In this document: positions 39,095-47,994 of the stretch, piece after piece
How the letters are laid out: each line of letters begins with the position of its first letter
Numbering within the stretch: position 1 is the first letter of the stretch
From: Gemmatimonadales bacterium
GTDB taxonomy: Bacteria > Gemmatimonadota > Gemmatimonadetes > Gemmatimonadales > GWC2-71-9
Assembly: GCA_039794085.1 (NCBI GenBank)
Contig: JBDIWC010000015.1
Location: 1-64,000, forward strand
Direction of reading: 5' to 3'
DNA: 64,000 nucleotides
Program-made: the position numbers and the translations under genes
Notes under the pieces: model-generated
Told to the model about the DNA's origin: nothing
What the model saw: only the letters and a program-made list of their open reading frames with translations
The model's database searches: none

Positions 39095-40066
39095 TCAGAT
39101 TTCCCAGTTGGACAACAGGATCCCCCTTGCCGGCTCCTGCTCCGGATATCGATCGAGGGTCATCCTCAGGTCGGTCCAATGCACCTGGTACCCTCGATCA
39201 ATCAGGATCCTCCAGGCGGCGGGTCGAGCAGTCTGGCACCGGATCAGGAGTGAGGTGCCTCCGGCCCGGCGCGCCCCGGCCTCGGTGGCCGCCACCGTGG
39301 CGGCGAAGGCGGCCTCGGAGTCCGCGGCCACCTTGAGCATCCGCACCTCCTCCACGCCCCTCCCCTGCGCGAGGGGGACGGAGTGCCAGAGAGCCCATCC
39401 CGCTATCTCCCCCCCGGGCTCGTGGCGAACCACCGACAGCCCGCCCAACCCCAGGGCTCGCGTTTCCCGGATCTCCCCTTCCCAGGACACCCCGGGCAGG
39501 AGGCGATCCGCCAGAGCCAGGCAGGCCGCGTCCTCTGAGCACCCCGCCTCCGGATCCACCCCGAAGCCCTCCACCGGCCCGGGAATGCGGGCAAGGTCTC
39601 CGGCGAGCGTCACGGTGAGGGGGCGCGGAACGAACCCGAGTCGCGCATAGAACCCGATGTTCTCCGCCGTTCGCGGCATGGTTTCCAACCCGATCACCCG
39701 GGCCCCCCCGGCCAGGAGCCGAGCGATCCCCTCCTCCACGATGGTGGTTCCGATACCATGGCCCTGGGCGTCGGGACGAACCGCCAGGGGACCCATCCAC
39801 CCTTCAACCCCGGCCTGATGGACCATATTGAAGGCCAGCAACTGCCGCCGGTCGTCATGCCAGAGGAGAGCTCCCTCTCCGGCGGTGGCGAAGGCATACT
39901 GCCAGACCGGTTCGTTGAGGTATGGCACCCTCAAGGTGGTCAGGCCATCCCGCCGGTAGCGATCGGTGAAGGCCTCGGCAAAGAGCTGGTTGAGCGCCGG
40001 AATATCGTCCGGGCGGGCGACCCGGGGCCCGACCACCACGGGGGGCGCCGTGCTACGCCGCGGCAT
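39095..40066 (-). CDS. GNAT family N-acetyltransferase (tandem GNAT-like)
   Basis: GPLAVRPDAQGHGIG acetyl-CoA motif and NIGFYARLGF. Start overlaps the rad50 3' end by 14 nt. Confidence 0.88.
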   Translation of the reverse strand: MPRRSTAPPVVVGPRVARPDDIPALNQLFAEAFTDRYRRDGLTTLRVPYLNEPVWQYAFATAGEGALLWHDDRRQLLAFNMVHQAGVEGWMGPLAVRPDAQGHGIGTTIVEEGIARLLAGGARVIGLETMPRTAENIGFYARLGFVPRPLTVTLAGDLARIPGPVEGFGVDPEAGCSEDAACLALADRLLPGVSWEGEIRETRALGLGGLSVVRHEPGGEIAGWALWHSVPLAQGRGVEEVRMLKVAADSEAAFAATVAATEAGARRAGGTSLLIRCQTARPAAWRILIDRGYQVHWTDLRMTLDRYPEQEPARGILLSNWEI

Positions 40067-42476
40067 GATCCACCCCCCCGATGGGTTCATCCCGGGCGGC
40101 GGACACCCCTCGCGACACATCATGCGAGATCCGGATGACCCGGTCCACTCCCTCGCGCACTCCCTCAATGTGGGTGATGAGAATGACCTGGGGAAACCGA
40201 TCGGCCAGGGACCGCAACAGTTCCAGCACGGCACCCCGCCGGTCCTCATCGAGGGACCCGAAGACTTCGTCCAGGACGAGGAGGGAGAGGGGCTGCCCCG
40301 CCCGTTCCGCGATCATCTGGCTGATGGCGAGCCGGAGGGCAAGATTCGCCAGATCCTCCTCCCCTCCGGAGATCACCTCGAGGGGAACCCCGTCATCGAT
40401 GATCGTGGCGACGTAGTCCTCGGTCAGTTCCAGGTCGGTGTAGCGACCTCCGGTCAGGTCGCGCAGGAAGGTGGACGCGATGTCCGAGAGGTCGGGGCGC
40501 AAGGTCGCGTTGAGGTCGGTGCGGAGGTCGGTCAGGGCCCGGTCGAGCTCCTGGTTGAGCAACAGCTCCGACGCCACCCGCTCCCGTTCCCGAAGCCGCT
40601 CCTCCCGCTCCACGCGCCGCTCCCTCACTCGGGCCACCTCCGTCGCGGCGGCCTGGCGCTCCCCCTCGGCCCGGGTCCGGGCCAGTTCCGCCTCGCGATG
40701 ATCCTTCGCCGCCGCGCTCGCGTGGTCCCGGGCCGCCGCGTAGACCTCCGGACTCCATCCCAAGGACTCCAGCCGTCCGCGCAACGTCCGTTCCTCCGCC
40801 TCGTGGGTGCTCAACCGGGCTTCCGCCTCCGTCATCGCCGCAGTGAGCCGTTCGGCGCGTTCGGAAGCCGCCCGCAGCCGCTCGGCTTGGAGCACCACCG
40901 GCTCGAGCTCCGCGAACCGGCCCCGGAGCGCGGCATGGGCATCTGCGTCGTAGGCGATCTCCTCGGCGCCCGCGCCGACGGCCAAGGTGGCGATCCGAGC
41001 CATTACCGTCTCCCGTTCCCGGGTGGTGGTCTCGCGATCCTGCGCCGCGCGTTCGAGCCGTCCCAGGTCGGTCTGGAGCCGGGCCACGTCGGCCTCCACG
41101 CGAGCGCGTTCGGTTTCCGCGGTCTCCAGTTCCGCCGGCTCGCGGGAGAGCTGCTCCACGCGCTGGGCAAAGTACCGGCCATTGGTGGTGACCTCGCCCA
41201 TCTGACGATCGAGCACCGCCAGCACCTCGGCATACTCCCGGCCCAGGGGACGGTTGCACGTGGGACACGCCCCCTCCGGCCCCGCTTCCTGGAGGCGCTG
41301 GCGCTGGTCCTTGATGTCATTGTAGTGGTCGAGCAACTGCTGGCGACGGGTCATGGCTTCCGACCGATCGCTGATCCACGTGGACCGGAGACGCGCGGCG
41401 CGCTCCGTCGCCTCCGCAGCCTCGCGGCGGCGCGCCGCGAGGGTCTCGCGCGCCTCGATCAGGGCGGTCACCGCCGGAAGCGCCTCCAGGCGGGCCTCGA
41501 GCTTCCCCTGGTGGGCCCGCAGCATCTCGAGCTCCGCGCGCTCGGCATTCCGGGCATTGTACGCCGCGGCCCGGCGGTCAAGTTCGCGGAGTTCCTCGCG
41601 CAGGGGCGGCACGGTCTCGAGTTGCGGGCGGAGTTCATCGTACCGGGTCCGGGCCGTGATCGCTTCCGCGAGTTCGAGGTCGAGTGCCGAGCAGCGGGCC
41701 CGGGCGTCACCGACCTGGTGTTCGGCCACACGGAGATCACTTTCCAGAGTACGGACCTGCTCCTGGAGGGCCTGCAGCTCCTCCCACCGGGGGCGGGCCA
41801 GGGCCAGGGCTTCCTCGGCCTGGGCCAAGGCGGCTCGGGCCGCCGCCAGGCGGGACTCCGCCTGGGCGAGTCGCTCGGCGCCGTCGCGTTCCTCGGCGTC
41901 GAGCTGGGCGGCGTCGGGAATCGTGCTGGTGATCACCTCCAGACGCGCCCGCAGGCCGGCCCGCTCCTCCCGCAGAATGTCCTGGGCCCGGCGGAGCCGT
42001 TCATACCCCATCACCCGGGACAGGAACCGGGCCCGCTCGGCCGGCGGCGTGGCCGACAGGATGGCCAGCTCCTTCTGGCCCGTGAAATAGGTGTTGAAGA
42101 ACTCCTCGCGTGACATGCCGAGAAGCCGGGTGACCCGCTCACTGACCGCCCCGAGGGAATTGGCGACCGGTTCGCGGGCTCCATCCTGATAGAGCTCCGC
42201 CCCGTGCAACGATCGCGTCACCCGATACTCATGCGCCCCGACCCCGAACTCCGCCACCACCTCCACGCGGGATCGGGCGGGAGCCCCGCGCCGCCGGATC
42301 GAGTCCCGGGTCCCGCGCGCGGCCGACGTCCCATAGAGCGCCCACGCGAGCGCCTCCAACAGCGTGCTCTTCCCCACGCCGTTCGGACCGATGATCCCGG
42401 TGACCCCCAGACCAAACTCCAGGTCGGTGTCCTCGTGCTGCCGGAAATTCCGCAACTGGAGGCGATGGAGACGCAT
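40053..42476 (-). CDS. sbcC: Rad50/SbcC SMC-like ATPase
   Basis: Walker A GPNGVGKST, coiled coils, Zn-hook CPTC, signature ISGGE, Walker B LVLDEVFGSLD, LITH. Confidence 0.95.
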   Translation of the reverse strand: MRLHRLQLRNFRQHEDTDLEFGLGVTGIIGPNGVGKSTLLEALAWALYGTSAARGTRDSIRRRGAPARSRVEVVAEFGVGAHEYRVTRSLHGAELYQDGAREPVANSLGAVSERVTRLLGMSREEFFNTYFTGQKELAILSATPPAERARFLSRVMGYERLRRAQDILREERAGLRARLEVITSTIPDAAQLDAEERDGAERLAQAESRLAAARAALAQAEEALALARPRWEELQALQEQVRTLESDLRVAEHQVGDARARCSALDLELAEAITARTRYDELRPQLETVPPLREELRELDRRAAAYNARNAERAELEMLRAHQGKLEARLEALPAVTALIEARETLAARRREAAEATERAARLRSTWISDRSEAMTRRQQLLDHYNDIKDQRQRLQEAGPEGACPTCNRPLGREYAEVLAVLDRQMGEVTTNGRYFAQRVEQLSREPAELETAETERARVEADVARLQTDLGRLERAAQDRETTTRERETVMARIATLAVGAGAEEIAYDADAHAALRGRFAELEPVVLQAERLRAASERAERLTAAMTEAEARLSTHEAEERTLRGRLESLGWSPEVYAAARDHASAAAKDHREAELARTRAEGERQAAATEVARVRERRVEREERLRERERVASELLLNQELDRALTDLRTDLNATLRPDLSDIASTFLRDLTGGRYTDLELTEDYVATIIDDGVPLEVISGGEEDLANLALRLAISQMIAERAGQPLSLLVLDEVFGSLDEDRRGAVLELLRSLADRFPQVILITHIEGVREGVDRVIRISHDVSRGVSAARDEPIGGVDHAAA

Positions 42477-43654
42477 CAGGTCTCCTCCCGGTCGTCCTGC
42501 ACCCGGGCCAGGAGTTCCAGGCCCCGCGCAAGAACCGTGTCGCGATCGAGTTCCGCCGGCAGGGGGCGCTGCCGCAGGTACTCCTCCAGGAGCTCGGGAA
42601 GGGCCTGGCGCCGTCCCGCCGGACCGACTCCCACCAGGCCGGGTTGCACCGGCCGGCGCAGGTCGAGCCGGTAGTGAAGGGCCCGGGCCTTGGCCTGGCG
42701 AATGAAGGCGTGGTCGAGATCCCGGGCCACATGCCGGGGGATCCCCTCCACCACCTGGCGCACGAGATCATCCGCTCCCCCATTCGGCAGCCCCTCCACC
42801 TGCGCGCGAAGGAGAAGGTCCACTTCGGCGGGGGTGCGATCGGTGGCATCGATGACGGGGAGGTCATGCACCCGCCGGACCGGGGTGAGGAACTGCGGCG
42901 TGACGTCTCCGGTCTCCAGATCAACCAGAATCCACCCTTTCCCCGGGAGGTGGCGCGCCGTCTCGTCCCGCCGCTCGCCCCAGGGGTTCGTGGTCACATA
43001 GTCGAGGGCCCCCGAATACCAGATCCGCCCGGCCACCTGATGCATCACGTGGTAGTGGCCGAGGGCCACGTAGTGCCACGCCTCGGCTCCGAGGTCGGAG
43101 GCCTTCAGTACACCGGCACCGGGGTCGGCCGGGGAGCGGTCCGTGGGATAGGTCCCTTCGATCTCCCCGTGGAGCGCAAGCACCTGATACCGGGCGGACG
43201 ACCCGGGAGCCAGCACGGGCCGCTCCGGTCCCATCAGGGCCTGATGCGGCACCGCCAGCACCTCCAGATCGAGATGGGGGTAGACGAGCCGCCTCGCCTC
43301 GTCGGTGGCCACATCAATGCCGGCGGCTTCGAACAGTCGGAAGATGGTGCCGGTTTCGACGGACCGCGGCGTGTCGTGGTTTCCGGCCAGCAGGATGATC
43401 GCCGCCTCGGGAAGCGCCTCGCGAAGCCGTTGCATCTGCTGAAAGGCGAACACAATCGCCGCGTTCGGGGGACGCACGGTGTGGAAGAGATCTCCCGCCA
43501 CCACGACCACGTCAGGCCGCACCTCAAGCAGAGCGTCCACGACCGCCCGGAAGGCCGTGGCGACATCGGCCTCCCGCTGGTTCAACCCCGATGCGGTCTG
43601 CCGGTAGTACTGCCGGTAGCCGAGGTGCGTATCAGCGAAATGCGCGAGACGCAC
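42476..43654 (-). CDS. sbcD: Mre11/SbcD metallophosphoesterase nuclease
   Basis: AHFADTHLG, VAGDLFH, AGNHD, LALHG, YVALGHYH, YSGAL. TGATG overlap with rad50. Confidence 0.95.
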   Translation of the reverse strand: MRLAHFADTHLGYRQYYRQTASGLNQREADVATAFRAVVDALLEVRPDVVVVAGDLFHTVRPPNAAIVFAFQQMQRLREALPEAAIILLAGNHDTPRSVETGTIFRLFEAAGIDVATDEARRLVYPHLDLEVLAVPHQALMGPERPVLAPGSSARYQVLALHGEIEGTYPTDRSPADPGAGVLKASDLGAEAWHYVALGHYHVMHQVAGRIWYSGALDYVTTNPWGERRDETARHLPGKGWILVDLETGDVTPQFLTPVRRVHDLPVIDATDRTPAEVDLLLRAQVEGLPNGGADDLVRQVVEGIPRHVARDLDHAFIRQAKARALHYRLDLRRPVQPGLVGVGPAGRRQALPELLEEYLRQRPLPAELDRDTVLARGLELLARVQDDREET

Positions 43655-43680
43655 GCGACACCAGCGCGAAGGGGGCTCGA

Positions 43681-45642
43681 TCAGGAGGCATAGGGATCGG
43701 GGTCGGACCGGATCGGGCGGACTCCGCGCCGGGGAGCCCGGGCCTCGGGGACCACATGGGTTCCGAGGCATCCGATGAACCAGGCCAGAGGATCCTCGGG
43801 CCGGTGCCTCCGGGTGGAATGAAGCGCCGCCCGCACGTCCTCCGGCCGGTGTCCCTCCACGACGTCGCGGACCCGGTCGGTCCGGATCGCCGGGTCAAGG
43901 GAGCGAAGCCCGGCCGCGATGGCGTCGGCAAAGGGGAGCTCGGCGGCGGGAGGAAACCGATCCACTCCCTCCCGGCCGGAGAGCATGGCGGGACGGGGGA
44001 ACCGGACGAAGACGGGCTGCGTGAAGTGGGGGTGACGGATCATGAGCTCACCCTTGGGCAAGGCCGCCAGCTTCGCCTTGGTGGCGAGGGAGAGGGTTCC
44101 GTAGCCGGCCATCGCCAGCTCATCGGCGTCCATGCGCCCATAGAGCGCCGTGCCCGCGTTTCCCACCACCCGGCGATGCACCTGAGAGCGAAACTGCTGC
44201 GCGGAGAAGAGCACGAGACCAAGATACCGCCCCCGTTCGGAGAGATCGAGGAGCATCTTGCGCACGTAGGTGTCGGGGCCATCGCCGGGAGCATACTTGT
44301 TGAGCTCGTCAACGAAGACGATGACATGGTCCACGCCCAATGTCCGTCGCTCCAGATGCTCCCGCAGCTTCGACACCACGCGGGCAAAGACCAGATCCTG
44401 GGCCAGGGGGTCGAGACCCGCCACGTCGACGGTGTAGGCCGCCCGGTCCGTGAACGCCCCCCAGGGAAGATCGTTCACTTCGCCATCATCGGTGACGAGG
44501 CCCTTGGCGCGGGTGCTGATGTTGCCCAGCCGGTTCCGCACCTTGCGGATGGTGGCGATGTGATGGGTACGCCAGACCTCGCCTCCGCGCCCGAGCGCCT
44601 CCATCCAGTCGAAGATGGCGCGGAAGAAGACCTCGAGATCGGCGAAGCTCTGGACCCGGAACGGCGCCTCGCGGAGGGCGTCGTCCCGGTACTCGTGACC
44701 CACCACGCGCTCGGCCAGGAAATTGATGAAGGCGTCGGCCTTGGCATCGATGTCATCCCGGTTCATCAGCACTTCGGCGTAATCGAGCACCTCCCGCAGT
44801 CCCCAGACCAGGGGCTCGGTGCGGGAGGCCAGGGCCTCGTGGGTACGCAGGGTATTGAGATTGACCCCATCGGCCTTGTACGGGGCATAACAGCGGAAAT
44901 CGGCCAGGGGGACCGGGGAGAGCCCGAGCCGGTCGTAAATGCGCCGGTCGGCATCGGTGAGGGGCCCCGGCTGGTCGAGGAAGCAGAGGTCGGGGCCCTT
45001 CACGTTGAAGCAGAGGGCGGCGACGGAGCCCTTGGCGGCGGGGAAGGTCTGGAAGATGCTGGTGAGGAGGAACTCGACCGCGCTGGTCTTGGTGGCGAGG
45101 CCGCTCACGCCGGTGATGTTCAGATGGGCGGCCTCGGGGCCGAGGAGGAACTCCGCATCGAGGTAGACGGGAGCCTCGATCCCTCCGGCGGCGTAGAGCC
45201 CGACCGGGATGCCGGTCGAGGCGTCGCCCGTGGCATAGGCATCCATGCGGAGGGACACCATCACGTCGGTGTCCGAGGCGAGGTACACGGCGCCGAGGGG
45301 GACGGGCTGCAGCGGCTCCTCGGGCTCCTGCCGGAGGACGGCGGCGGCATAGAGCCGGATCTCGCTCCGGGCGGTCGGGGCGTCCGGTCCCGCCGGGTCA
45401 CCCTCCGCCGCGATGACCGCGTCGAGTGCAGTGGGAAGATCGGACCAGGCAAATCCGTCGGTGACAACGCCGTACACCGTGCGGCCCCCGCTCTCGGCCC
45501 GCACGATGGCCCCGATCCCCACGGGGGAGGTGGTCGCGGTCCAGAAGAAGAACTGGTGGGGCGTACTGGGCCGGAGTTCGGTGGCCACCACCTGGCCGAT
45601 CGGCGGGGAGACCGCTCCCGGAGGGGATTCCGGCATGGTCAT
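43681..45642 (-). CDS. herA: HerA-family ATPase / DNA translocase
   Basis: N-terminal HAS-barrel-like region, HLNITGVSGLATKTS (Walker A variant), FNVKG, IVFVDELNKYA, ERGRYLGLVLFSAQQ, LPKGE. Confidence 0.88.
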   Translation of the reverse strand: MTMPESPPGAVSPPIGQVVATELRPSTPHQFFFWTATTSPVGIGAIVRAESGGRTVYGVVTDGFAWSDLPTALDAVIAAEGDPAGPDAPTARSEIRLYAAAVLRQEPEEPLQPVPLGAVYLASDTDVMVSLRMDAYATGDASTGIPVGLYAAGGIEAPVYLDAEFLLGPEAAHLNITGVSGLATKTSAVEFLLTSIFQTFPAAKGSVAALCFNVKGPDLCFLDQPGPLTDADRRIYDRLGLSPVPLADFRCYAPYKADGVNLNTLRTHEALASRTEPLVWGLREVLDYAEVLMNRDDIDAKADAFINFLAERVVGHEYRDDALREAPFRVQSFADLEVFFRAIFDWMEALGRGGEVWRTHHIATIRKVRNRLGNISTRAKGLVTDDGEVNDLPWGAFTDRAAYTVDVAGLDPLAQDLVFARVVSKLREHLERRTLGVDHVIVFVDELNKYAPGDGPDTYVRKMLLDLSERGRYLGLVLFSAQQFRSQVHRRVVGNAGTALYGRMDADELAMAGYGTLSLATKAKLAALPKGELMIRHPHFTQPVFVRFPRPAMLSGREGVDRFPPAAELPFADAIAAGLRSLDPAIRTDRVRDVVEGHRPEDVRAALHSTRRHRPEDPLAWFIGCLGTHVVPEARAPRRGVRPIRSDPDPYAS

Positions 45643-46601
45643 GGAGTGTGTCCGCGGGATTCCAGGTAACGCTCCACCGCCCGCATGCCGTAGAGCTGAC
45701 GATCCCACCGGCGATCCGGCGTGCTCAGGGGGGCGCGTTCCGCAAGAATCCAGCGTGATATTTCATCTACCCTGCGGGCCGTCTCCTCTCCGGGCGCCGC
45801 CTCGATCCGCACCAGCCCATGGAACGGGTCCCGCCCTTCCCAGGCCCGGAGCCGCAACCCCCAGGACCAGACCGGGGCCACCCGGCGCGACGCCGGCTGG
45901 AAGATCGAGGTGCGGTGTCCCACCGGTAGCGCGAGGTACCGGTGCAGCGCGGGGCCCTCGAACGGAAGCGTCGCGTGACTCTTGGCGACACCGATCATCC
46001 GTCCATCCGCGGCCCAGGCGGGGCTTTCGGCGAGGGAACCGTCCACCACCATCCAGTCCCGGTGCCGTCGCCGGAACGCGTCTCCCACCTCCACCTCCAG
46101 AGTTCCGCGATGCTGGTCGAGAACCGCCCGGGCCCGGTCGAGATCCCGGGCGGCATGGGGGATCTCCTCGGCGTCCAGCGTGATTCGGTCGAACCCGTCG
46201 AGAGCCGTTCCCGCCGCGGCGAGGACCGCTTCCCGGGCAATGGCGAGCCGCCGAACGCGGACCTCCGCCGCCCGCAGGATCCTCCCCTCCCGGCGAAGCA
46301 CCGCGGCGGCCGCCGTGCCGATCACCAGCGGAAGCGGGCCGTCATAGGCCACGACCCGGTGGCGCTGGATGCCATCGAGAAAGGCCACATCTTCCGGACA
46401 GACAACCGGGAAACCACACTCATACCAGACCAGTTCCGGGTCGTGCACCAGGCGAGCGGGCCGGACGGCGGCGTCCTCCGCGCGGCCCAGGCCACCGGCG
46501 CTCCCGTCGGCAACGGGGACCAGGCCGCGGGCCGCGAGCTGCCGGCGCAGGCGAGCCAGGACAGGCGGAGAGGGCTCCGCAGCCGGGGCGATCACTCCCA
46601 C
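45639..46601 (-). CDS. nurA: NurA-like nuclease (RNase H fold)
   Basis: VAFLDGIQ, LEVEV, WMVVDGSL, IGVAKSH, W.LRLR, GLVRIE, LYGMRAVERYL. ATGA overlap with herA. The start is the GTG at 46601 or 46595. Confidence 0.8.
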   Translation of the reverse strand: MGVIAPAAEPSPPVLARLRRQLAARGLVPVADGSAGGLGRAEDAAVRPARLVHDPELVWYECGFPVVCPEDVAFLDGIQRHRVVAYDGPLPLVIGTAAAAVLRREGRILRAAEVRVRRLAIAREAVLAAAGTALDGFDRITLDAEEIPHAARDLDRARAVLDQHRGTLEVEVGDAFRRRHRDWMVVDGSLAESPAWAADGRMIGVAKSHATLPFEGPALHRYLALPVGHRTSIFQPASRRVAPVWSWGLRLRAWEGRDPFHGLVRIEAAPGEETARRVDEISRWILAERAPLSTPDRRWDRQLYGMRAVERYLESRGHTP

Positions 46602-46606
46602 CGGCC

Positions 46607-47815
46607 TCAGGCCCCGGGCACGGGGAGACCGGCCCGGGCCAGGAAGGGAATGACCCGGTCCAGGGCACGGGTCAGCTCGGCCTCGGACACCGCGAAGCTG
46701 AGGCGGACCCAGCGGTCGTCCCCGAAGGCGTCGCCCGGGACGGTACTGACCCCGGCTTCCTCCAGCAGGCGCTGACAGAAGGTCTGTCCGGTCATTCCGT
46801 CTCCCACGCCATCGACCCGGAAGAAGAGGTAGAAGGCGCCGTGAGGCTCCACGAACTCGATTCCCGGTGCCTCGCGCCGGAACCGCTCGACGATCAGGTC
46901 GCGCCGGCGGTGGAAGGCCTCGGTCATCCGCTGGACCTCGCGTTCCACCTTGTCGTCGGCGAAGGCGGTGGCCGCGGCCCACTGGGCGGGATGGTTGGCC
47001 CCCGTGGTGGTGTGGGACTGCAGGGCATCCATGGCCTTCACCAGGTCCGGGGGCGCCCACGCGGCTCCGATCCGCCAGCCCGTCATCGCATAGGCCTTGC
47101 TCGCCCCGGTGATCACCACGACGCGCTCCAGCAGCTCGTCGGGAAGATCGAGCAGGGACGGGGCGGCTCCGGATCCGAAGTAGATCCGCCGATAGATCTC
47201 GTCCGCGATGATCCAGATCCCGTGCGTCGCCGCCCAGGTGGCGATGGCCTTGAGTTCGCTCAGGGTGTACACCGACCCGGTCGGATTGTTCGGAGAACAG
47301 AGGATGAGGCCGCGCACCAGGCGATCCGTCTTTCGCTCCAGGTCGGCCACTCCCACCTTGAGGCCCCATTCCGGGTCGCCGGGCACGGGGACGGGCTCGG
47401 CCCGGGCCAGGCGCACAATCTGCGGATAGGACACCCACGCGGGCGAGGGGATCAGGACCCGGTCCTTCGGTCCGAAGAGGGAGAAGCAGGCATTGAAGAG
47501 GGACTGCTTCGACCCGGAGCTGATCATGACGCGCGCGGGGTCGACCGGCCGTCCGCCGGAAAGCCGGGAGAGGTTCCGGGCCACCGCGTGTCGCAGGGGA
47601 TCGATGCCGAGGTTGGGCGGGTAGCGGGTGTGGCCCTTCTGGATGGCCTGGATCGCGGCCTGGACCACGGGGCCCGGGGTATCGAAGTCGGGTTCCCCCA
47701 CGCCGAGGTCGATGATGTCCTCCCCCGCGTCCTTCCGCCGGCGCGCCTCGCGGCTCAGGGCGATGGTGGTCGAGGAGACGAGGTAGGCCAGATTCTGGGA
47801 CAGTGCGTCGGGCAT
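46607..47815 (-). CDS. PLP-dependent aminotransferase class I/II (AspC-like)
   Basis: GVGEPDFDTP, SPNNPTG, IIADEIY, GASKAYAMTGWRIG, PHGAFY, WVRLSFA. Confidence 0.95.
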   Translation of the reverse strand: MPDALSQNLAYLVSSTTIALSREARRRKDAGEDIIDLGVGEPDFDTPGPVVQAAIQAIQKGHTRYPPNLGIDPLRHAVARNLSRLSGGRPVDPARVMISSGSKQSLFNACFSLFGPKDRVLIPSPAWVSYPQIVRLARAEPVPVPGDPEWGLKVGVADLERKTDRLVRGLILCSPNNPTGSVYTLSELKAIATWAATHGIWIIADEIYRRIYFGSGAAPSLLDLPDELLERVVVITGASKAYAMTGWRIGAAWAPPDLVKAMDALQSHTTTGANHPAQWAAATAFADDKVEREVQRMTEAFHRRRDLIVERFRREAPGIEFVEPHGAFYLFFRVDGVGDGMTGQTFCQRLLEEAGVSTVPGDAFGDDRWVRLSFAVSEAELTRALDRVIPFLARAGLPVPGA

Positions 47816-47898
47816 CAATCTCCCCGGTCAAGGCGACAGTGGTGAGAGGGAAGGAACCCCGAAACCTTTCGAGCCACCCGCCGGAAGTCAATGCGGGG

Positions 47899-47929
47899 AA
47901 GTTCGAAGTTTGAAGTTTGAAGTTTGAAG
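47899..47929 (+). repeat. (GAAGTTY)n heptamer array
   Basis: gaagttcgaagtttgaagtttgaagtttgaag, the same unit as 28725-28748. Confidence 0.8.
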
Positions 47930-47994
47930 GGGCCCGCGCTACTTTTCCGCCCATCGTCGGAACGTGAACACGCTGTTTGAGAATCGAGGGGCCC

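What the first reader, a model, noticed from the sequence alone, without database searches (positions are those of the whole stretch)
40053..46601. Complete archaeal-style nurA-herA-mre11-rad50 operon in a bacterium
Seen: four co-oriented genes with NurA motifs (FLDG, VVDGSL, GVAKS), HerA motifs (Walker B VDE, ERGR arginine finger, AQQ), Mre11 phosphoesterase motifs, and Rad50 motifs (CPTC hook, ISGGE). Two junctions are coupled by ATGA and TGATG overlaps and the third has a 26-nt gap. Known: NurA-HerA with Mre11-Rad50 is the double-strand-break end-resection machine characterised in thermophilic archaea, whereas bacteria typically use RecBCD/AddAB/AdnAB and keep SbcCD separately. Inference: this lineage may use a four-component resection pathway embedded among housekeeping genes. 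A HerA-nuclease anti-phage role is the alternative.
Basis: partly seen in the sequence, partly recalled or inferred. Interest (0 to 1): 0.82.

Follow-up and report, generated by a model that had tools for sequence, protein, structure and literature searches.

The report
Bacterial NurA-HerA beside Mre11-Rad50
This bacterium carries side by side the four genes that archaea use to trim broken DNA ends, but they are bacterial versions in two loosely joined pairs, it also keeps an ordinary trimming enzyme (AddAB-like), and the layout occurs in many other bacteria, so it is likely a helper repair route rather than an archaeal import or a replacement.

Summary
Observation confirmed: nurA-herA-mre11-rad50 lie on the minus strand with the stated motifs and junctions. 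NurA and HerA escape Pfam but match Deinococcus NurA-HerA by fold and profile, so they are bacterial-type, not archaeal. This genome also encodes an addB-addA pair, RecJ, a RecQ-like helicase and Ku. In 108 sampled genomes of the order (likely Gemmatimonadales), 82 have nurA+herA and 74 show no RecB-family nuclease, against 43 of 43 with a hit outside the order. But 15 have neither, and RecJ is in 107 of 108. The cluster behaves as two modules: nurA-herA adjacent in 33/36 loci, mre11-rad50 in 54/55, herA-mre11 in only 18/45 (81). A distant version is common in Actinomycetota (54/57 loci), often behind a PafBC-type DNA-damage promoter motif. The layout is published for Oceanithermus (PMC5448004); a 2026 review denies such bacterial synteny (PMC13748450). 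The scan found this before on other DNA. Verdict: real, under-annotated, likely an auxiliary break-processing route; defence unlikely. Interest 0.4.

The parts
45639..46595 (-). nurA, bacterial-type RNase H-fold 5'-3' nuclease, 318 aa (alternative start GTG 46601); D74, D185, K205, R296
   Evidence: AlphaFold model pLDDT 87.8; Foldseek 7F6D_G E 1.4e-11; VIA Z 18.5, rmsd 4.0, 266 aligned to 7F6D_G, 17.9 to 1ZUP, 14.5 to 2YGK; profile A3 hits D. radiodurans NurA at E 4.7e-44; no Pfam hit
43681..45642 (-). herA, Deinococcus-type ring translocase, 653 aa; Walker A K185/T186, D218, Walker B D445/E446, R470
   Evidence: Only significant PDB sequence hit is D. radiodurans HerA 7F6D, E 3e-40, profile E 2.6e-57; residues invariant in 42 orthologues
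42476..43654 (-). mre11/sbcD metallophosphoesterase, 392 aa
   Evidence: PF00149 E 1.9e-9; NCBIfam Mre11/SbcD models, all under their cut-offs; best PDB hit 3AUZ E 2.9e-18
40053..42476 (-). rad50/sbcC ABC-ATPase with central CPTC zinc hook, 807 aa
   Evidence: PF02463, PF13476, PF13558; NF003034 Rad50 E 1.3e-60 vs TIGR00618 SbcC E 4.9e-28, both under cut-off; best PDB hit 5F3W E 4.6e-31
39095..40066 (-). tandem GNAT acetyltransferase, 323 aa, start inside the rad50 end; target unknown
   Evidence: PF00583 E 8.9e-12; model pLDDT 91.5; best fold match 3DDD Z 26.9, rmsd 3.1, 270 aligned; directly after rad50 in 48 of 51 loci
46607..47815 (-). class I/II aminotransferase, upstream housekeeping neighbour; a conserved TTGAC-N17 promoter-like element at about 47891-47863 precedes it (seen by eye, inferred)
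   Evidence: PF00155 E 2e-71; directly before nurA in only 3 of 27 loci; upstream sequences

Best explanation
The locus holds two inherited chromosomal gene pairs, nurA-herA and mre11-rad50 (plus an acetyltransferase), that likely form a helper route for processing broken DNA ends beside RecJ and, in this genome, an AddAB-like enzyme. Inferred mechanism, by homology to D. radiodurans NurA-HerA and to Mre11-Rad50: Mre11-Rad50 would bind a break through its hooked coiled coils and clip blocked or hairpin ends. A HerA hexamer capped by a NurA dimer would then thread the clean end, pump it with ATP and cut the 5' strand, leaving a 3' tail for RecA. The two pairs probably cooperate without being an obligate four-part machine. 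Shown here: gene identities, intact catalytic residues, order-wide inheritance, rarity of AddAB in the order, separability of the pairs. Inferred: oligomers, activities, co-operation, co-transcription.
For: Catalytic residues equivalent to drNurA D53/K201/R309 and drHerA K175/T176, D220 and Walker B (PMC9960219 passages) are invariant. In 108 sampled genomes of the order herA is in 97, nurA in 83, both in 82; the Mre11 orthologue is in 107. Housekeeping neighbours and genome-like composition (GC 0.70, tetranucleotide fit at the 44th percentile). The four-gene set recurs in other orders and with distantly related proteins (20-30% identity to this set): 12 of 16 genomes of another family carry herA and nurA, with mre11-rad50 beside herA in 11 of those 12 loci, and 54 of 57 GTDB loci, mostly Actinomycetota, have all four. 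There herA is preceded by the PafBC motif tGTCgg(N10)tA(N3)T (PMC8635444) with <=1 mismatch in 21 of 78, vs 1.4% of shuffles, 2 of 78 on the reverse strand and 21 of 537 control genes, which points to repair. Helper, not sole route: AddAB-like pair here and in 5 of 5 actinobacterial cluster genomes; RecJ in 107 of 108; 15 of 108 lack both a nurA+herA pair and any RecB-family nuclease.
Against: Co-operation rests on neighbourhood only. The herA-mre11 junction is interrupted in 27 of 45 loci, and mre11 has its own -10-like element in 13 of 56 vs 2 of 56 at a control offset. Gene order is conserved for unrelated neighbours too. nurA is lost while herA is kept in 15 genomes of 10 genera. No PafBC motif enrichment in this order: <=1 mismatch in 0/38 nurA, 0/47 herA, 1/56 mre11 and 0/43 aminotransferase upstream regions. 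Deinococcus and Thermus nurA/herA deletions give modest or improved damage resistance (PMC9960219 section 3; PMC4663267 passages).
Confidence: 0.5

Rival explanations
1. Two unrelated neighbours. mre11-rad50-gnat is the native SbcCD-like hairpin and cross-link nuclease unit; nurA-herA arrived next to it and acts alone or with RecJ (tuning or competing with RecJ resection, or aiding uptake recombination), as reported for Deinococcus.
For: mre11-rad50-gnat persists at the same site without herA. Insertions, some on the opposite strand, split herA from mre11 in 27 of 45 loci. drHerA binds and stimulates RecJ, and nurA and recJ mutants have opposite phenotypes (PMC4663267 passages). RecJ is near-universal here.
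Against: The same four genes are co-located in other orders and with distantly related proteins in other lineages (Oceanithermus, PMC5448004), which is hard to explain by chance alone. Archaeal HerA co-precipitates with Mre11-Rad50 (PMC2288612 passage).
Confidence: 0.27
2. The four proteins are the order's main double-strand-break resection machine and replaced AddAB, which most members lost; this genome's addAB is a relic or a re-acquisition.
For: 74 of 108 genomes of the order show no PF12705 hit, against hits in 43 of 43 outside it. 59 of 108 have nurA+herA and no such hit. In 18 negative genomes, the 11 long UvrD ORFs examined are UvrD-exonuclease (10) or IrrE-UvrD (1) fusions, not AddA. 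The same-genus genome G001 has no hit.
Against: No significant complementarity within the order: 7 of 18 genomes with a long AddAB-like pair lack nurA+herA, vs 19 of 90 without one; Fisher p 0.13, kin not independent. 15 genomes in 11 genera have neither. Family f7 has RecB-family nucleases in 16 of 16 and the cluster genes in 12 of 16. RecJ offers another route.
Confidence: 0.15
3. Anti-phage or foreign-DNA destruction by a HerA-driven nuclease.
For: PMC13748450 (passage) states that bacterial NurA-HerA mainly degrades viral DNA. HerA-effector defence systems exist (search listing only). Repeated loss of nurA.
Against: PADLOC: no hit for NurA or Mre11, and only a generic ATPase hit for HerA, no HerA defence model. 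Fixed housekeeping neighbourhood across the order. HerA relatives in 6 of 72,556 plasmids and 2 of 50,697 phages. DNA-damage promoter motif on the actinobacterial version.
Confidence: 0.08

Closest known systems
Deinococcus radiodurans NurA-HerA (PDB 7F6D, 7WRW/7WRX; PMC9960219) and Thermotoga maritima NurA TM1739 (1ZUP)
   Same: NurA fold and catalytic residues, HerA ATKT-type Walker A, overlapping nurA-herA pair; host lineage largely without RecBCD/AddAB but with RecJ.
   Different: Here the pair sits beside mre11-rad50; NurA is 15-16% identical in the structural alignment and invisible to PF09376; HerA has an extra ~90-aa C-terminal part not aligned to drHerA.
Oceanithermus profundus nurA-hepA(herA)-sbcD-sbcC (Blesa et al. 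2017, PMC5448004 section 3.1)
   Same: A bacterium with sbcD and sbcC directly downstream of herA, described as archaea-like architecture; the authors read it as later recruitment of SbcCD.
   Different: Single-genus remark there; order-wide here, with a welded GNAT gene. Sequences were not compared.
Archaeal herA-mre11-rad50-nurA resection operon (Sulfolobales, Thermococcales; PMC13748450 section 7, PMC2288612)
   Same: Same four families in one run; among solved structures Mre11 and Rad50 score best against archaeal-type chains (3AUZ, 5F3W; species recalled as M. jannaschii).
   Different: Different order, bacterial-type NurA/HerA, separable modules, frequent loss of nurA, and coexistence with RecJ and AddAB.
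Actinomycetota/Longimicrobiales herA-mre11-rad50-nurA cluster (not found in print in my searches)
   Same: Same four families and same HerA motif class.
   Different: Only 20-30% identical and a separate branch for all four genes; tight order; PafBC-type promoter motif that this order lacks.

Membership tests
NurA nuclease (bacterial type) | RNase H-like NurA fold | tested here: met
   best matches 7F6D_G (Z 18.5), 1ZUP (17.9), 2YGK (14.5); best non-NurA/Tdp row 10.4
NurA nuclease (bacterial type) | Two DG motifs plus the catalytic Lys and Arg (drNurA D53, K201, R309) | tested here: met
   D74, D185, K205, R296 invariant in A1 and A3; profile columns align to the drNurA motifs (numbering inferred from a 20-residue tag offset)
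NurA nuclease (bacterial type) | Pfam PF09376 above the gathering score | tested here: not met
   No hit for this protein or genome; three distant cluster relatives hit at 21.6-22.6 bits: a sensitivity limit of the model
NurA nuclease (bacterial type) | Dimer, Mn-dependent 5'-3' nuclease activity, 2:6 complex with HerA | not testable with these tools
   Needs biochemistry
HerA translocase | Walker A K/T, ASCE acid, Walker B DE, arginine finger | tested here: met
   K185, T186, D218, D445, E446, R470 invariant in 42 orthologues and aligned to 7F6D; the arginine-finger label is recalled
HerA translocase | N-terminal HAS barrel / DUF87 model | tested here: inconclusive
   No Pfam or NCBIfam hit; residues 14-284 align to drHerA 14-297, 52 bits; not folded
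Mre11/SbcD-Rad50/SbcC | Phosphoesterase motifs; ABC head with signature, Walker A/B, D-loop; central CXXC hook | tested here: met
Archaeal four-gene resection operon | Four genes adjacent and co-oriented | tested here: met
Archaeal four-gene resection operon | Archaeal-type NurA and HerA proteins | tested here: not met
   Profiles hit Deinococcus/Thermotoga chains only, no archaeal chain at E<=1
Archaeal four-gene resection operon | Mre11-Rad50 of archaeal descent | tested here: inconclusive
   Best PDB/NCBIfam scores are archaeal but far under cut-offs; 3 of 20 looked-up relatives had a taxon name, all bacterial; no archaeal sequence was in the trees
Archaeal four-gene resection operon | Stable unit across the lineage | tested here: not met
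   herA-mre11 adjacent in 18 of 45 loci; 26 of 108 genomes lack nurA, herA or both
Archaeal four-gene resection operon | Co-transcription and HerA contact with Mre11-Rad50 | not testable with these tools
   Needs RT-PCR and pull-down
Archaeal four-gene resection operon | Sole resection route (no RecBCD/AddAB/AdnAB, no RecJ) | tested here: not met
   addB-addA on contig C65; RecJ
HerA-effector anti-phage systems (Sir2-HerA, HerA-DUF4297) | Defence-type HerA with adjacent effector in a mobile or defence context | tested here: not met
   No PADLOC HerA model hit for the window HerA and none for NurA; housekeeping neighbours; phage protection itself untested

The most novel reading that the evidence does not exclude
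Gemmatimonadales are a whole mesophilic bacterial order that shed AddAB and resects double-strand breaks with an independently assembled archaea-like machine, in which bacterial NurA-HerA works with its own Mre11-Rad50 and the welded acetyltransferase regulates Rad50; bacteria built this four-part machine at least twice (here and in Actinomycetota, where it is wired to the PafBC damage response).
Probability: 0.15. Interest if true: 0.75.

Novelty: new variant of a known kind. Interest (0 to 1): 0.4.

Why it matters
The role of bacterial NurA-HerA is openly disputed: only Deinococcus and Thermus are studied, with weak or inverse phenotypes (PMC9960219). [quoted passage not shown] The data here contradict that for one order and for many Actinomycetota, and explain the oversight: Pfam and NCBIfam miss both NurA and HerA. 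The order supplies natural genotypes (cluster only, cluster plus AddAB as here, neither), and named Micromonospora and Actinoplanes strains carry the tight version, so it can be tested directly whether Mre11-Rad50 is the partner missing from the Deinococcus experiments. The parts and one bacterial precedent are known, which caps the surprise.

Tried and rejected
Pfam, NCBIfam and PDB sequence searches for NurA alone or with close homologues: nothing; the fold and a wider profile were needed. The TIGR02785 AddA search over 151 genomes failed its own control (missed G000's AddA at E<=1e-20) and was not used for counts. The single-protein AddB search finds one AddB type only, so PF12705 was used. 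RecC (PF04257) was not found in G000; it was not searched across the order. Complex prediction of HerA 14-570 with Mre11: no answer, score 0.00, not evidence either way. No RNA run was listed for the locus, so no reads were laid. LexA-type box upstream of herA in the GTDB loci: 1 of 77, rejected. Sigma-70 scan of the locus: no promoter called at the cluster start. addAB as a misbinned contig: C65 composition is genome-like, rejected. HerA as FtsK substitute: FtsK is present, rejected. Complementarity of AddAB and nurA-herA within the order: not significant. Trees are FastTree, midpoint-rooted, on 33-45 hand-picked rows with no archaeal sequences, so no origin or donor is claimed. Iyer 2004, Constantinesco 2004 and Cheng 2015 (J Bacteriol) were not held and may describe bacterial neighbourhoods. 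No supplements were opened.


Full report
Observation. The co-oriented run is longer: an aminotransferase ends 11 nt before nurA and a tandem GNAT gene starts 14 nt inside the rad50 end. Named homologues of the first gene come from Gemmatimonadales and Gemmatimonadetes, so the host is likely of that order; the genome is 94.7% complete.

Gene identities. Mre11 and Rad50 are plain by Pfam. NurA and HerA have no Pfam or meaningful NCBIfam hit. HerA's only significant PDB match is D. radiodurans HerA (E 3e-40; profile E 2.6e-57). The NurA model (pLDDT 87.8) matches D. radiodurans NurA (Z 18.5), T. maritima TM1739 (17.9) and S. solfataricus NurA (14.5). A 28-row profile hits the first two at E 4.7e-44 and 1e-20 and no archaeal chain. 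Residues equivalent to those shown to be catalytic in Deinococcus (PMC9960219 passages) are invariant. Mre11 and Rad50 score best against archaeal models and structures, far under the cut-offs. Of 20 of the 150 nearest representatives of an orthologue that I looked up, 3 carried a taxon name: two Armatimonadota and one Longimicrobiales. Archaeal descent is neither shown nor excluded.

Other resection genes in this genome. Contig C65 has adjacent 1058- and 1025-aa genes with C-terminal PD-(D/E)XK domains, best matching B. subtilis-type AddB and AddA (under the equivalog cut-offs), followed by two WYL/WCX genes. C65 is compositionally native. RecJ, a RecQ-like helicase, Ku and FtsK are present; RecC was not found. 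The cluster does not stand in for AddAB here.

The order. In an even draw of 150 genomes of the phylum (>=90% complete) plus G000, 108 belong to the order. herA is in 97, nurA in 83, both in 82, the Mre11 orthologue in 107 and RecJ in 107. PF12705, which rings in the E. coli, B. subtilis, Caulobacter and Corynebacterium controls, hits only 34 of 108, and only 18 of these are long AddAB-like pairs by my reading of the rows (17 weaker matches were not listed), against 43 of 43 genomes outside the order. In 18 negative genomes the 11 long UvrD ORFs I examined were UvrD-exonuclease or IrrE-UvrD fusions. Against a strict replacement: 15 genomes in 11 genera lack both systems, 11 of 18 AddAB carriers keep nurA+herA, and the association is not significant (p 0.13, kin not independent).

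Two modules. In 57 fetched loci (chosen by me, not at random; one from outside the order) genes were directly adjacent (gap <=250 nt) as follows: nurA-herA 33/36, mre11-rad50 54/55, rad50-gnat 48/51, herA-mre11 18/45, aminotransferase-nurA 3/27. mre11 has a TAnnnT element 10-16 nt before its start in 13 of 56, vs 2 of 56 at a control offset; the window has none. Genomes without herA keep mre11-rad50-gnat at the same site, and 15 genomes in 10 genera keep herA without nurA. Flanking housekeeping genes are syntenic too, so order conservation inside this lineage is weak evidence by itself.

Elsewhere in bacteria. In another family of the class (likely Longimicrobiales, by the title of L068), 12 of 16 genomes carry different versions, in the orders herA-mre11-rad50-nurA or nurA-herA-mre11-rad50. 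A scan of 7 of 64 parts of the GTDB set estimated about 5800 stretches with this HerA motif class. The 80 kept are those closest to one query, mostly Acidimicrobiia and Micromonosporaceae, so they are no census. Of 57 with >=6 kb downstream, 54 have all four genes in the Sulfolobales order (23 short loci set aside, some genes called in pieces). These proteins are 20-30% identical to the window's and form a separate branch for each gene. Their herA upstream regions carry the PafBC motif (PMC8635444 passages) with <=1 mismatch in 21 of 78 and <=2 in 54 of 78, against 1.4% and 20% in shuffles and 3.9% and 18% in 537 control genes; many rows are close kin. The motif is not enriched in the window's order. 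All 5 actinobacterial genomes tested also have a long PD-(D/E)XK gene pair. Recurrence with different parts and a damage-type promoter is the best evidence for a repair role and for some coupling.

Mechanism. Most likely (0.5) a helper route: Mre11-Rad50 cleans ends, NurA-HerA resects the 5' strand, in parallel with RecJ and, where present, AddAB. Every biochemical step is inferred from Deinococcus (PMC9960219 sections 3 and 15 part 1) and Sulfolobus (PMC2288612 passages). Rivals: unrelated neighbours (0.27), main replacement of AddAB (0.15), defence (0.08; searches gave no support).

Literature. PMC5448004 (passages and section 3.1) reports sbcD-sbcC downstream of herA in Oceanithermus. PMC13748450 (passages and section 7) states that bacterial nurA lacks stable four-gene clustering. 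PMC4663267 (passages) leaves the link to SbcCD open. Searches listed no paper on this cluster in Gemmatimonadota or Actinomycetota, judged from titles and abstract starts; three key older papers were not held and no supplements were read, so absence from print is not established. Earlier notes of this scan reach similar readings on other genomes. They are not independent support. My PafBC and AddAB counts were made before I saw the notes that mention them.

Verdict. Real and intact; a divergent, annotation-invisible variant of a known system with a published bacterial precedent. Its value lies in correcting a current review and in offering test strains for a disputed function. Interest 0.4.

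Noticed in passing
G000 contig C65 9703-17983 (L028:3704-11984); also L185 (G058): addB-addA is followed directly by two WYL/WCX genes, one with HTH_PafC: a PafBC-like pair outside Actinomycetota. In G058 a similar pair lies convergent to addA.
   Followed up: partly
L068-L147, about 40-180 nt before herA: PafBC-type promoter motif before the herA-mre11-rad50-nurA operon of Acidimicrobiia and Micromonosporaceae, including named strains.
   Followed up: yes
window 39095-40066: Tandem GNAT with many invariant residues and an invariant SNWE end, overlapping rad50 across the order but not after rad50 in two genomes outside it (L030, L157); closest fold is an uncharacterised Pyrococcus protein, 3DDD. 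Target unknown.
   Followed up: partly
G000 contig C49 (L179:3841-6756) and L168-L178: A ~970-aa UvrD helicase with a DEDDh exonuclease inserted in its C-terminal half is common in this order; a possible further end-processing enzyme in AddAB-less genomes. Ku lies two genes away in G000.
   Followed up: partly
L160-L163 (family f7): A second mre11, closer to the window's type, is followed by a ~480-aa gene with no Pfam ATPase hit in the one scanned, perhaps a degenerate or split Rad50, in genomes that also carry the four-gene cluster.
   Followed up: no
G138:C3 2178557-2184738: addB and addA appear broken into short frames in a genome that keeps nurA-herA: possible ongoing AddAB loss, or assembly error.
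   Followed up: no
L034 15216-15940; L036 4363-5087: An RHH + PIN toxin-antitoxin pair (scanned in L034; same-sized pair in L036) sits between rad50 and nurA.
   Followed up: no
G000 contig C72 925-8139: A Cas4-Cas1-like fusion and a Cas3-like helicase (read by eye from translations) indicate a CRISPR locus elsewhere in the genome.
   Followed up: no
window about 47895-47930 and 47940-47990: Short (T)TCAAAC(T) repeats in the intergenic region before the aminotransferase.
   Followed up: no
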